Positions 61,479 to 64,000 of a DNA stretch of 64,000 bases are shown here, one piece after another (position 1 is the first letter of the stretch; every line of letters starts with the position of its first letter). The notes below the pieces were generated by a model. The model did no database searches and was not told where the DNA came from. It was given only the letters and a program-made list of their open reading frames with translations. The position numbers were made by a program, and so were the translations under genes. Origin of the DNA: an uncultured Bacilli bacterium (lineage in GTDB: Bacteria; Bacillota_I; Bacilli_A; RF39; UBA660); the NCBI GenBank assembly GCA_947627675.1, contig CANQWY010000001.1:5334-69333 (forward strand), in the 5' to 3' direction.

Positions 61479-62369
61479 TTACTTTAGTCTATCAAAAGTA
61501 ATTTTTCCTAGTTTACCAGATTGTAAATCACTTATAATAATTTTACTAACTTTTTCATAATCTGGTAAACCTCCTCTTTTTAATGCCCCTCTTTTTTTAG
61601 CAATTTGATTATATTCATCTACTAAGTCTTCACTTAAACTTGTTATATCATATCTTTCCTTTAGATTGCCCTTATATAGCTTAAACATTATTCTAAGAAT
61701 AAAATTACTTATTTCATAAGAATTCACTACCTCTTCTTTAATTGAGGATAGAGAGGCTAATATTTTTGCTTCTTCTTGTGATTCAATTTTTGGCCATAAT
61801 ATTCCAGGAGAATCTAATAATTCTATATTTTTATCAATTTTAATCCAATTTAATTGCTTAGTAAAACCGGGCTTACTTGCAACACCAGCTTTGGCTTTCC
61901 CAGCGATTTTATTTATAAGTGTTGATTTACCAGCATTTGGTACTCCTATTACTAATACTCTAATATTTCTTCTTTGCAATCCTTTTTCTTTTTGCTTCAT
62001 AAAGTAATCATTCATTAAATTATTAGTTTCCAATATTATTTTTTTAATATTTGTATTATTTAATTCAGAAGTGATTACTGTATATTTCATATCTTGGTAA
62101 TATTTTATAAACTTGTTAGTTTCTTCTTTGTCACAAAGATCATATTTACTAAAGATAATAATCTTTTTTTTATCTTTAACGATATTATCTATATCTTTTA
62201 TTTTTGATGATACTGGCATTCTAGAATCTACTACTTCATAAATAACATCTATCAAATTAAGTTTTTCCTTTATTTCTCTTTTAGTTCTAGCCATATGCCC
62301 AGGATACCAGTTAATTCCGACTTTAGTTAATTTTTCTTCATTTGACATTTTAATCACTACCTTTTTCAT
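61479..62369 (-). CDS. rbgA: Ribosome biogenesis GTPase A (YlqF/RbgA)
   Basis: Circularly permuted GTPase with INWYPGHMAR, NKxD-like DLCD, and Walker A GVPNAGKST. The true start may be the internal ATG MSNEEK. Confidence 0.85.
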   Translation of the reverse strand: MKKVVIKMSNEEKLTKVGINWYPGHMARTKREIKEKLNLIDVIYEVVDSRMPVSSKIKDIDNIVKDKKKIIIFSKYDLCDKEETNKFIKYYQDMKYTVITSELNNTNIKKIILETNNLMNDYFMKQKEKGLQRRNIRVLVIGVPNAGKSTLINKIAGKAKAGVASKPGFTKQLNWIKIDKNIELLDSPGILWPKIESQEEAKILASLSSIKEEVVNSYEISNFILRIMFKLYKGNLKERYDITSLSEDLVDEYNQIAKKRGALKRGGLPDYEKVSKIIISDLQSGKLGKITFDRLK

Positions 62370-63216
62370 TTAATAATTTAATTTTTTCTGCATTATTTAA
62401 AATATCTAATTGATATTTACATATATCACTTAATATTTCAAATCTTTCTTCTTTTGATTTTCCTTCTTTAATTAACTCAGCATTATGTGATTCTAAATTG
62501 GATAAAACAGTTAATTCATTAATTGTTGCATAATCTCTTACATTTGAATTTTTTGCTAACTCTGGATTTAATTCTCTCCATTTCTTAGCAGTAGTATGAA
62601 ACAGTATTACATTAAGGATATCAGCTTCTTCTGCATATTTTAACCATTCTTTATTTTTATAAAAATCATTATCAGGTAATATGTATTTTTTAATTGCATC
62701 TGTATGAATTAAATAATTATTCTTTGTAAGTATTCTTTTTACATCCCACTCTCTATTTTGATTTTCTAACTCTTTTAATCTTTCAAATTCTTTTATTAAA
62801 TATAATTTAAATACAGGACTTATTGCAGATGCAAATTCAAATGCTATGTCTTTATGTGCATATGTTCCACCATATTTACCACGTTTTGAATATATGCCAA
62901 TAGCATTTGTTTTCTCACACCATTCAGTAACACTTAAAGTAAATGTATGAAGTCCAGCACTTTTTCTAAACCCGTCGAATTCGACGGAATTAAAATTTGG
63001 ATTATAAATAGATTCCCCTGTTCCTAAAAACTCTAGAGTAATTCTATTCCTTAACCAATTTCTAATCACATCATCAGCTTTTGATTTTCCTTCTTTAAAT
63101 TTACCAAAATCAGAAATGCAAATATAATCATTATCATATATATTTGTAACATTTATTTTAATATTTTGGACTTCTAAAATTTTATTAGACATATATTCAC
63201 CTCTAATTTCAATCAA
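62350..63216 (-). CDS. KilA-N domain-containing protein (phage-related)
   Basis: ICISDFGKFKEGKSKADDVIRNWLRNRITLEFLG and GTYAHKDIAFEFASAISPVFKLYLIKEFERLKE are hallmark KilA-N segments. Confidence 0.65.
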   Translation of the reverse strand: MIEIRGEYMSNKILEVQNIKINVTNIYDNDYICISDFGKFKEGKSKADDVIRNWLRNRITLEFLGTGESIYNPNFNSVEFDGFRKSAGLHTFTLSVTEWCEKTNAIGIYSKRGKYGGTYAHKDIAFEFASAISPVFKLYLIKEFERLKELENQNREWDVKRILTKNNYLIHTDAIKKYILPDNDFYKNKEWLKYAEEADILNVILFHTTAKKWRELNPELAKNSNVRDYATINELTVLSNLESHNAELIKEGKSKEERFEILSDICKYQLDILNNAEKIKLLNEKGSD

Positions 63217-63512
63217 ACATATTTGGAATATAACATTTTTTTCAAAAATGTTATAGCATTTAAATTATATATTTTTGTTTTATATTTTTTTCCATCAGAA
63301 GCAGTTACCGAGGAATCCTCGACAACTGAATTTTCATCAAGTTCATTATCCTTAAAAATATTTTTTAAGTGCAATGATATATTGTCAGTAGAGCAATCAA
63401 AAACTTTTGTCATTCCTTTTTGTGTAAGCCATAACGTTTCATCTTTAAATATAGCATCTACTATTATATTTCCATCACTATTTTTATAGATTATTAAATT
63501 ATTGTCATTCAT
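63213..63512 (-). pseudogene. RhuM-family protein, N-terminal fragment only (99 aa; full-length is about 330 aa)
   Basis: IIYKNSDGNIIVDAIFKDETLWLTQKGMTKVFDCSTDNISLHLKNIFKDNELDE ... IYNLNAI matches the conserved N-terminal region of RhuM-family proteins. The ORF then terminates, with a 4-nt overlap into the KilA-N gene. Confidence 0.45.
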
Positions 63513-63736
63513 TTAAAATTTTCCTTCCTTTCAGTTTTTGTTAACTTATGTCGGAACTACCTATTTTTTTCATAATTTATATTTTATTTATTACAACAAA
63601 ATGTAAAAAGTAAATTCATTAAAATCCTCTATTTATAAGCATTTTGTAAATAGTTAACTAAAGTCGGTATATACCAGTTGATATTTGCCTGATTTTGTCG
63701 ATTTTCCATTTAAATCACTTCCTAACTGAATTAATC

Positions 63737-64000
63737 TTATTTCATTTTTTCTAATTCACTTAATGCTTTCGATTTTTTTATAGTTTCATTTGATATCTCA
63801 ATTAAATTATTATCCACAGCAACATAGTGAATTATTTTTATATTGCTTATATCCATAGCTTTTCTTATTTCATTTTCTATGTAGTGTAATTGTACACAAT
63901 GAGGAGATTTGTCTACAGAAGCAAATACTATTTTATCAATATTTGTCCTACAAATCATTCCTATAATTTTAGTTATTACCATATTTATATGAGTTTCTTC
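63737..64000 (-). CDS. Hypothetical protein, C-terminal part; the gene may start beyond the window edge
   Basis: The ORF runs to the window end. No recognised motif. Confidence 0.3.
   Translation of the reverse strand, partial: EETHINMVITKIIGMICRTNIDKIVFASVDKSPHCVQLHYIENEIRKAMDISNIKIIHYVAVDNNLIEISNETIKKSKALSELEKMK

What the first reader, a model, noticed from the sequence alone, without database searches (positions are those of the whole stretch)
62350..63700. Phage-derived insertion (KilA-N gene plus truncated RhuM-family gene) wedged upstream of rbgA, with nearby imperfect direct repeats
The conserved Firmicute block rbgA-rnhB-topA is preceded by a KilA-N domain protein and a 99-aa ORF. 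The 99-aa ORF matches only the N-terminal third of RhuM-family proteins before stopping, with a 4-nt overlap into the KilA-N gene. Both families are typical of prophages and genomic islands. In the spacer 3' of them, two related 22-nt elements, TTAACTTATGTCGGAACTACC and TTAACTAAAGTCGGTATATACC, occur about 110 nt apart as direct repeats. These are possible attachment or insertion scars. The KilA-N stop abuts the probable rbgA start. So the insert may now supply the promoter context of an essential ribosome-biogenesis gene.
Basis: partly seen in the sequence, partly recalled or inferred. Interest (0 to 1): 0.5.

Follow-up and report, generated by a model that had tools for sequence, protein, structure and literature searches.

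The report
Recombinase-less mobile insert rewriting rbgA start
The KilA-N gene and the truncated RhuM gene form a 1.37-kb remnant of a small mobile element that inserted by site-specific recombination into the first codons of the essential ribosome-assembly gene rbgA, a shared insertion hot spot in uncultured gut Bacilli, and that now supplies rbgA's ribosome-binding site, start codon and N-terminus.

Summary
KilA-N (62350-63192, minus strand) is confirmed by Pfam. The 99-aa ORF (63213-63512) is the first ~87 residues of a 334-348-aa RhuM protein. The two 22-nt repeats exist.

The repeats are one arm (P') of a recombination site. A third, inverted copy (P) lies inside rbgA codons 6-13. A degenerate copy of an older rbgA ribosome-binding site, start and N-terminus sits 1,367 bp upstream. 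The insert is therefore bounded by attL (63723-63650) and attR (62330-62304), with the crossover at the TG of AAC-TG-G (codons N-W of INWYPGHM).

Five related species have empty lepB-rbgA sites. Others carry 0.9 to >10 kb of inserts there. Eleven loci have a large serine recombinase (LSR) gene at this position. One 4.1-kb element (L069) is complete.

The window's unit lost its LSR and two thirds of RhuM in one deletion. It recurs with the same deletion junction in two other hosts, with different flanks or arms.

No phage structural genes or tyrosine integrases were seen. rbgA's 5' end is already known as the target of streptococcal Tn5253-type ICEs. This is best filed as a new LSR-based variant with tandem accretion. 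Interest is moderate.

The parts
63675..63723 (-). Relic of an earlier rbgA 5' end (the B arm of attL). It holds the RBS AGGAAGTGAT (63723-63714), an ATG (63709-63707), the codons MENRQNQANINW and the core AACTG (63679-63675).
   Evidence: Direct repeats D1 and D20 against the present rbgA 5' end. It is 80-90% identical to the functional rbgA 5' ends of L027, L008, L066, L079 and L023. Alignment by eye.
63653..63674 (-). P' arm of attL, GTATATACCGACTTTAGTTAAC.
   Evidence: Perfect 14-bp inverted repeat with 62317-62330 (I7, 15). The same arm follows five different rbgA relics in L001, L086, L168, L169 and L170.
63563..63652 (-). Left-end leader. It contains the conserved box CTTATAAATA (63639-63630) and TTTTTACA.
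   Evidence: The box recurs 35-45 nt inside nearly all attL-type junctions found. A promoter role is inference only.
63541..63562 (-). Second P'-like copy, GGTAGTTCCGACATAAGTTAAC. Its role is unknown.
   Evidence: The same doubled arrangement is conserved in L086 and in L170, where it sits in front of a full-length RhuM. A similar doubling occurs in the L001 DUF6870 cassette.
63213..63512 (-). RhuM' ORF of 99 aa: the N-terminal ~87 residues of a RhuM-family protein plus a 12-residue foreign tail, TFLKKMLYSKYV.
   Evidence: The same junction and tail occur in L083 and L086.
63203..63254 (.). Deletion junction, with ~45 nt of filler of unknown origin. It includes a perfect 11-bp hairpin, ATAACATTTTT-TTC-AAAAATGTTAT (63230-63254).
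   Evidence: RhuM homology ends at 63252 and KilA-N module homology starts at about 63202. The filler is found only in the same RhuM'-KilA-N units.
62350..63192 (-). KilA-N domain protein, 280 aa, intact.
   Evidence: Pfam PF04383. It is 84-99% identical upstream of rbgA in L008, L018, L025, L049, L050, L083 and L086, where RbgA is 50-57% identical in the five scored loci and visibly divergent in L083 and L086. dN/dS is 0.08-0.16.
62308..62363 (-). Element-supplied rbgA translation start. The RBS AAAGGTAGTGAT lies within the KilA-N 3' end. The ATG is at 62348-62346. The codons are MSNEEKLTKVGIN.
   Evidence: The KilA-N 3' end plus ATGTCAAATGAA travel together in L018, L025, L049, L050, L083 and L086. 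Empty-site species have only 2-3 residues before NWYPGHM.
62304..62330 (-). attR: the P arm TTAACTAAAGTCGGAATT plus the core AACTG(GTAT). The inferred crossover dinucleotide TG is at 62309-62308.
   Evidence: The dyad centre of P+P' falls on TG here and in the complete element L069. Several other relics (SWIM, AF_0155 and DUF6870 cassettes, L069) end exactly at AACTG.
61479..62348 (-). rbgA (ylqF), the target gene.
   Evidence: TIGR03596, E 9.8e-91.

Best explanation
**What it is.** Window 63674-62308 (1,367 bp) is a recombinase-less remnant of a small integrative element. It inserted by site-specific recombination into rbgA at the codons for N-W of the conserved INWYPGHM motif.

**What the sequence shows.**
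- The element is bounded by hybrid sites. attL is an old rbgA RBS, start and N-terminus fused to the element arm P'. attR is the element arm P fused to the rest of rbgA.
- P and P' are inverted repeats placed symmetrically around a TG dinucleotide.
- The P arm doubles as coding sequence. The element therefore gives rbgA a new RBS (embedded in the KilA-N 3' end), a new start codon and a new N-terminal peptide (MSNEEKLTKVGI).

**What is inferred.**
- The recombinase is a large serine recombinase (LSR) of the kind found at this position in related species.
- The ancestor carried P'-leader-RhuM ... LSR-KilA-N-P.
- One internal deletion removed RhuM residues ~88 to the end, together with the LSR.
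- The resulting RhuM'-KilA-N unit was then moved between hosts by an LSR supplied in trans.

**Context.** The unit is the rbgA-proximal, and therefore presumably newest, member of a tandem array of more than 10 kb. That array holds at least five attL-type junctions between similarly scarred cassettes and lies between lepB and rbgA.
For: 1. **Duplicated rbgA 5' end.** A second copy lies 1,361-1,367 bp upstream (D1 and D20). It is 80-90% identical to functional rbgA 5' ends of other species.
2. **Arms.** There is a perfect 14-bp inverted repeat between 63654-63667 and 62317-62330. The motif occurs only three times in 64 kb, and 0 of 100 shuffles reach that count.
3. **Empty sites.** lepB-rbgA is uninterrupted in L033, L035, L044, L077 and L081, with native N-termini of 2-3 residues (up to 10 in L044) before NWYPGHM. 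Inserts of 0.9 to >5.8 kb occur in 12 other loci, and more than 10.8 kb here.
4. **LSR genes.** They are co-oriented with rbgA and within a few kb upstream of it in 11 loci. Four representative LSRs contain Resolvase, Recombinase and Zn_ribbon_recom domains. L069 is a complete 4.1-kb element in the order attL, Bro-N-like gene, 417-aa gene, LSR, attR. Its arms are symmetric, 23 nt on each side of TG.
5. **Junctions.** About 22 attL-type junctions passed a strict scan of the loci searched. rbgA homology breaks at AACTG in some and at AACTGGTAT in others.
6. **The same unit elsewhere.** In L086 the whole P'-to-P unit is 97% identical, yet both flanks differ immediately beyond the cores. L083 has the same deletion junction with different arms. 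The RbgA sequences printed for L083 and L086 are visibly divergent from the window's (identity not computed).
7. **Independent insertions.** The same P' arm follows five different relics.
8. **No rival recombinase found.** XerC-seeded phmmer and jackhmmer searches found no tyrosine recombinase in 270 upstream ORFs. No phage structural family appears in the top 25 Pfam families of either batch, 191 ORFs in all.
Against: - No LSR gene lies in the 64-kb window or in the 10.8 kb upstream. The acting enzyme is therefore inferred from other genomes.
- No circular form or restored attB was observed.
- Every contig of this same species shows the insert, so no within-species polymorphism was seen.
- Most junctions share a 9-bp identity (AACTGGTAT). 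That is more than an LSR needs and would also suit a tyrosine recombinase.
- The known rbgA-targeting ICEs use tyrosine integrases (PMC4701971).
- The role of the second P'-like copy is unexplained.
- The Pfam census lists only the 25 commonest families per batch, so a rare tyrosine integrase could have been missed.
Confidence: 0.75

Rival explanations
1. Decayed prophage. A temperate phage integrated upstream of or into rbgA and eroded to KilA-N plus a RhuM fragment. The repeats are its att scars.
For: KilA-N relatives at 42-66% identity occur in Staphylococcus phage EW, in Streptococcus satellite phages and in faecal 'Bacteriophage sp.' records. IMG/VR lists contigs with a 93% identical KilA-N. 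Bro-N, KilA-N and RhuM are common in phages.
Against: The top 25 Pfam families of 191 ORFs at this hot spot include no capsid, portal, terminase, tail or lysis family. A complete element is only 4.1 kb. The two closest IMG/VR 'viral' contigs are themselves rbgA-upstream islands carrying LSR pseudogenes.
Confidence: 0.1
2. Remnant of a Tn5253-like ICE or IME that uses a tyrosine integrase, as is known for the rbgA 5' end in streptococci and enterococci.
For: Tn5253 integrates after nucleotide 20 of the rbgA CDS, downstream of an 11-bp conserved core. The resulting duplication restores the CDS (PMC8571831). Streptococcal ICEs that insert in the 5' end of rbgA encode tyrosine integrases (PMC4701971). 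The 9-bp shared core seen here would suit a tyrosine recombinase.
Against: XerC-seeded phmmer and jackhmmer searches found no tyrosine recombinase among 270 upstream ORFs. Phage_integrase is not among the top families. LSR domains are the commonest recombinase, in 13-14 ORFs. No conjugation-module family appears in the lists shown. Some junctions share only AACTG.
Confidence: 0.07
3. No dedicated recombinase. The lepB-rbgA interval is a variable region reshuffled by homologous recombination between conserved flanks and repeated genes (RhuM, Bro-N), followed by deletions.
For: The region is strongly mosaic. dS is 0.57 for RhuM' but 0.09 for KilA-N between the same two loci. The same gene body carries different arms in L083. 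There are many truncated RhuM and Bro-N genes and a truncated UDG copy.
Against: Homologous recombination does not explain the serial duplicated rbgA starts that end at the same 5-9 nt, the arms that are dyad-symmetric about TG, or the consistent presence of LSR genes.
Confidence: 0.08

Closest known systems
Tn5253-family ICEs integrating in the 5' end of rbgA (Streptococcus, Enterococcus; PMC8571831, PMC4701971)
   Same: The target gene is the same and the position is essentially the same. Tn5253 inserts after nucleotide 20 of the CDS, a few residues into the protein (PMC8571831); that this lies just before the conserved (Q/N)W(F/Y)PGHM codons is my reading from the B. subtilis RbgA sequence, not the paper's statement. 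The gene's 5' end is duplicated, so the essential CDS is restored. The element can alter the N-terminus and the upstream expression signals.
   Different: Those are 60-kb conjugative elements with tyrosine integrases. Here the elements are 1.4-4 kb, are associated with large serine recombinases, show no conjugation genes, and are stacked in tandem arrays in uncultured gut Bacilli.
SCCmec / SCC composite islands at rlmH (orfX) in staphylococci (own knowledge)
   Same: Large serine recombinases (Ccr) insert elements into the end of a conserved ribosome-related gene. The element replaces the terminal codons. Tandem composite islands form, including recombinase-less pseudo-SCC units bounded by integration-site repeats. 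Mobilisation in trans is presumed.
   Different: SCC elements target the 3' end, not the 5' end. They are much larger (20-60 kb) and carry resistance cargo. Here the element must also supply the RBS and start codon.
CIMEs and site-specific accretion of ICE/IME elements (ICESt1 family); tycheposon arrays (bioRxiv 10.1101/2020.12.28.424599)
   Same: These are att-flanked units without a recombination module. They sit in tandem with autonomous relatives at one hot spot.
   Different: They belong to different recombinase families and use different targets (fda, tRNA genes). Trans-mobilisation has not been demonstrated experimentally here.
Integron cassette arrays
   Same: The units are short, mostly promoter-poor and co-oriented, they lack a recombinase, and they are added at one fixed site so that the newest lies next to it.
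   Different: There is no IntI tyrosine recombinase, no attC hairpin sites and no Pc promoter. The fixed site is an essential gene. Many units are deletion products of larger elements and not designed cassettes.

Membership tests
KilA-N domain proteins (PF04383) | Match to the KilA-N HMM above the gathering score | tested here: met
   65.8 bits against a cut-off of 23.8, residues 19-148.
RhuM family (PF13310) | Presence of the Virulence_RhuM domain (about 250 residues) | tested here: not met
   The 99-aa ORF has no Pfam hit at E<=0.01. In the full-length 348-aa relative the domain spans residues 67-324. The ORF ends at the equivalent of residue ~97.
RhuM family (PF13310) | Homology of the ORF to the N-terminal region of bona fide RhuM proteins | tested here: met
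   59% identity to residues 7-97 of the 348-aa RhuM in L083. 93% identity to residues 1-87 of the 334-aa RhuM in L170. Many homologues carry PF13310.
Large-serine-recombinase integrative element | The element encodes an LSR (Resolvase + Recombinase + Zn_ribbon_recom) | tested here: not met
   There is no LSR in the window or in L001. LSRs are present in related elements at the same site in 11 loci. The window's unit is therefore a remnant, not an autonomous member.
Large-serine-recombinase integrative element | attL and attR hybrid sites whose element-derived arms are imperfect inverted repeats centred on a short crossover | tested here: met
   The P and P' arms are 21-22 nt on each side of TG, with a 14-bp perfect inverted repeat. 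The geometry is the same in the complete element L069.
Large-serine-recombinase integrative element | An unoccupied attB exists in relatives | tested here: met
   lepB is followed by rbgA within 33-72 nt in L033, L035, L044, L077 and L081.
Large-serine-recombinase integrative element | Excision to a circle with attP, and restoration of attB | not testable with these tools
   This needs reads, PCR or in vitro recombination. P-P' junctions that occur inside arrays (for example L003 at 2647) cannot be told apart from true attP.
Tn5253-type ICE at rbgA | Tyrosine integrase and a conjugation module | tested here: not met
   XerC-seeded phmmer and jackhmmer found nothing in 270 ORFs. Neither kind of family is among the top 25 in the Pfam census. 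Sensitivity is limited.
Prophage | Structural, packaging or lysis genes | tested here: not met
   None appear in the window's upstream 10.8 kb or in the top-25 lists of the census of 191 ORFs.
CIME / pseudo-SCC-like non-autonomous unit | Bounded by intact att arms, lacks a recombinase, and is found as the same unit in different contexts | tested here: met
   L086 has a 97% identical unit with different flanks at both cores. L083 has the same deletion junction with other arms. Mobilisation in trans remains inferred.
Integron | IntI tyrosine recombinase, attI and attC | tested here: not met
   No tyrosine recombinase was found. The sites here are LSR-like arms, not attC.

The most novel reading that the evidence does not exclude
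The lepB-rbgA junction of these uncultured gut Bacilli may work as an integron-like capture platform driven by a large serine recombinase. Recombinase-less cassettes (RhuM, KilA-N, Bro-N, SWIM, small enzymes) would be excised and re-inserted in trans, always next to rbgA and always in its orientation. Each newcomer would rewrite the RBS, the start codon and a 7-30-residue N-terminal extension of an essential ribosome-assembly GTPase. rbgA would then be transcribed through, or from, the mobile DNA.
Probability: 0.35. Interest if true: 0.7.

Novelty: new variant of a known kind. Interest (0 to 1): 0.5.

Why it matters
- **Convergent targeting.** The 5' codons of rbgA are an insertion target in a second bacterial lineage, apparently for a different recombinase family. 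This looks like convergent use of the invariant (Q/N)W(F/Y)PGHM codons.
- **Candidate tools.** The data give a set of natural LSR, attP and attB combinations with a conserved essential-gene target. These could become genome-engineering tools for uncultivated gut Bacilli.
- **Assembly breaks.** Thirty of 80 MAG contigs stop within 700 nt of this site, and this hot spot explains why.
- **Tolerance of an essential gene.** The translation start and N-terminus of an essential gene can be replaced repeatedly by mobile DNA.
- **RhuM context.** RhuM, whose function is unknown, is the first gene behind the left arm of the elements with this P' arm (window, L086, L168-L170).

Tried and rejected
- **Pfam and NCBIfam on the 99-aa ORF.** No hit. 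Homology had to come from the large protein search.
- **All top-120 homologues are short (76-171 aa).** I first read this as a possible stand-alone short family. I rejected that because the truncation points differ and many come from contigs of about 1 kb.
- **Promoter and terminator scan.** 14 promoter-like sites against 15.4 expected, and 0 terminators. This is uninformative in such AT-rich DNA.
- **dN/dS of the 99-aa ORF.** The value is 0.11, which looked like selection. However, dS is six times that of the adjacent KilA-N, so the segment is mosaic and the test is not decisive.
- **Single-gene, integron-style cassettes.** The SWIM cassette turned out to be a SWIM-Bro-N element with a deletion in L001. 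Many 'cassettes' are therefore deletion products.
- **Metagenome scan for the arm.** It found three more attL junctions but no autonomous parent carrying an LSR and these exact arms.
- **Same-species contigs found through RnhB.** All show the insert or break inside KilA-N. No empty allele was found.
- **Origin of the 45-nt filler at the deletion junction.** Not found.
- **Rfam on the extended locus.** It gave only a group II intron fragment outside the window.
Full report
**1. Observation**

All genes in 58-64 kb lie on the minus strand. The order is an AF_0155-like gene (ends 63737), a spacer, a 99-aa ORF (63512-63213), a KilA-N gene (63192-62350), rbgA (62348-61479), rnhB, topA and a xerC-like gene.

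- Pfam confirms KilA-N at E 3.6e-18. NCBIfam confirms YlqF/RbgA at E 1e-90.
- The 99-aa ORF has no HMM hit. It has 572 homologues, many carrying PF13310.
- It aligns with residues 7-97 of a 348-aa RhuM, in which PF13310 spans residues 67-324. It is 93% identical to residues 1-87 of a 334-aa RhuM in L170.
- Homology ends at YNL(N/D)AI and is followed by a 12-residue foreign tail.
- The two 22-nt repeats are real. The motif TTAACTNNNGTCGG occurs exactly three times in the window, all in this region, and 0 of 100 shuffles reach three.
- The third copy is inverted and lies inside rbgA codons 6-10.
- The reported 4-nt overlap depends on a TTG start. The RBS and the homologues place the KilA-N start at 63192.

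**2. Anatomy**

On the gene strand the present rbgA start reads AAAGGTAGTGATTAAA-ATG-TCAAATGAAGAAAAATTAACTAAAGTCGGAATT-AACTG-GTATCCTGGGCATATG. A degenerate second copy lies 1,367 bp upstream. It reads AGGAAGTGATTTAA-ATG-GAAAATCGACAAAATCAGGCAAATATC-AACTG-GTAT|ATACCGACTTTAGTTAAC (D1 and D20).

This relic is 80-90% identical to the functional rbgA 5' ends of other species. It is therefore an abandoned rbgA start.

Beyond the shared core the relic continues into an arm (P'). P' is the inverted repeat of the arm (P) that now encodes RbgA residues 6-12. P and P' extend 21-22 nt on either side of the TG of AAC-TG-G. The insert is thus bounded by attL (B-P') and attR (P-B'). The P arm, together with an RBS embedded in the KilA-N 3' end, gives rbgA a new start.

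**3. Comparative evidence**

A scan with RbgA returned 80 species of uncultured gut 'Bacilli', Mollicutes-like MAGs, at 47-71% identity.

- *Empty sites.* The ancestral order is rplS-lepB-rbgA. Five species have empty sites with native N-termini such as M-A-I-NWYPGHM. Twelve have inserts of 0.9 to >5.8 kb. The window species has more than 10.8 kb.
- *Assembly breaks.* Thirty of the 80 contigs end within 700 nt upstream of the NWY codons, and some end within 5-7 nt. Contigs of the window's own species also break inside KilA-N.
- *Mobile cargo.* Accessory genes here are far more conserved than the host gene. KilA-N is 84-99% identical where RbgA is 50-57% identical. SWIM (95.6% DNA identity), DUF6870 (94%) and the ASCH pair (93%) behave likewise, and Bro-N reaches 91%.
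- *Recombinase.* LSR genes sit co-oriented a few kb upstream of rbgA in 11 loci, and four representatives have the full three-domain architecture.
- *A complete element.* L069 holds a complete 4.1-kb element. It runs lepB | relic-AACTG + P' | Bro-N-like gene, 417-aa gene, LSR | P-AACTG | rbgA. Its arms are symmetric, 23 nt on each side of TG.
- *Linked modules.* L018 has LSR-KilA-N-rbgA. L025 has a RhuM fragment, then LSR, KilA-N, a relic, SWIM, Bro-N and rbgA.
- *Junction count.* A strict scan gave about 22 attL-type junctions. Each is RBS-ATG-short peptide-ATHAAYTG, followed by P' and then a conserved CCTTATAAATA box. More are visible by eye.
- *The window's array.* L001 extends the window's locus. 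It holds at least five such junctions between UDG, Bro-N, SWIM, MTase, DUF6870, His_Phos, AF_0155 and the RhuM'-KilA-N unit.

**4. History of the window's unit**

KilA-N module homology to L018 and L025 starts at its RBS (window ~63202). RhuM homology ends at 63252. Between them lie ~45 nt of unknown origin that include a perfect 11-bp hairpin.

The same junction and tail occur in two other hosts.

- In L086 the whole P'-to-P unit is 97% identical. Both flanks differ immediately beyond the cores.
- In L083 the same gene body carries a different pair of arms and follows a full-length RhuM.

The same P' arm follows five different relics, in L001, L086, L168, L169 and L170. In L170 the doubled P' precedes an intact 334-aa RhuM.

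The simplest reading is one deletion that removed the RhuM 3' part and the LSR, followed by spread of the LSR-less unit. That spread is inferred, not observed.

The dN/dS of the 99-aa ORF is 0.11. Its dS (0.57) is six times that of KilA-N (0.09), which indicates mosaicism. Whether the ORF is functional stays open.

**5. What it is not**

- The Pfam census of 191 ORFs at the hot spot is led by LSR domains (13-14 ORFs), RhuM (11), Bro-N (11), GNAT (~9), KilA-N (7), UDG, SWIM, HD and ASCH. No phage structural family and no Phage_integrase is listed.
- XerC-seeded phmmer and jackhmmer found no tyrosine recombinase.
- KilA-N relatives do occur in phages and satellites at 42-66% identity. The two closest IMG/VR 'viral' contigs are themselves rbgA-upstream islands.

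**6. Known relatives and novelty**

The rbgA 5' end is an established attB of Tn5253-family ICEs. They insert after nucleotide 20 of the CDS, have an 11-bp core, and restore the CDS by duplication (PMC8571831). They use tyrosine integrases (PMC4701971).

Tandem accretion with recombinase-less units is known from SCC composite islands, CIMEs and tycheposons. The LSR association at this target, the very small element size, the long co-oriented arrays (262 of 270 upstream ORFs share rbgA's strand) and the element-encoded N-terminal extensions of RbgA appear new. I found no paper that describes them.

**7. Limits**

- No LSR lies near the window's unit.
- Excision was not observed.
- The promoter question is unresolved.
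- The function of the second P'-like copy, and the functions of RhuM and KilA-N, are unknown.

Noticed in passing
Loci L003-L082 (rbgA loci of 80 species): Thirty of 80 contigs end within 700 nt upstream of the NWYPGHM codons of rbgA, and some end 5-7 nt before them. This is a systematic assembly break at the hot spot. The window's own species shows the same break inside KilA-N (L172-L174).
   Followed up: partly
L001 4889-4982 (about 4.2 kb beyond the window's right end): There is a group II intron D1-D4 fragment (RF02001, 34.5 bits, E 5e-4). It lies between an unusually long 511-aa ThyX gene and a duplicated, frameshifted UDG C-terminal fragment.
   Followed up: no
window 63630-63639, and 35-45 nt inside almost every attL junction in other loci: A conserved box C(C/T)TTATAAATA(A)AGG follows the P' arm, often with TTTTTACA(C)ATTTT further in. 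It could be a -10 element or a further protein-binding site.
   Followed up: partly
rbgA 5' ends in L003-L082: The RbgA N-terminus before NWYPGHM ranges from 2-3 residues in four of the five empty sites (10 in L044) to about 30 residues (MDMYQKRKIRAEKKNNNQEEKLTKVGI...). It falls into a few classes shared by distantly related species, as expected if elements supply them.
   Followed up: partly
window 63203-63254: About 45 nt of filler lie at the RhuM'/KilA-N deletion junction and contain a perfect 11-bp hairpin. The filler's origin is unknown. It occurs only in copies of this unit.
   Followed up: partly
L088, L089 (IMG/VR UViG_3300029595_000255 and UViG_3300029106_000323): These contigs are catalogued as viral. 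They carry the same kind of island (LSR pseudogenes, Bro-N, a truncated KilA-N at 93% identity, RhuM) upstream of an rbgA that is only 37% identical. The hot spot therefore reaches more distant hosts, and the viral label may be wrong.
   Followed up: partly
L021 2885-2935: A longer rbgA relic is present (NWYPGHMAKTKRQIKEK, then a stop). It is followed by a 271-aa ORF and then the real rbgA. Here the duplication extends past the usual core, so this may be a different kind of event.
   Followed up: no
Upstream regions of all loci: 262 of 270 ORFs of at least 110 aa upstream of rbgA are on rbgA's strand. No terminator-like hairpin occurs in window 62200-64000.
   Followed up: no
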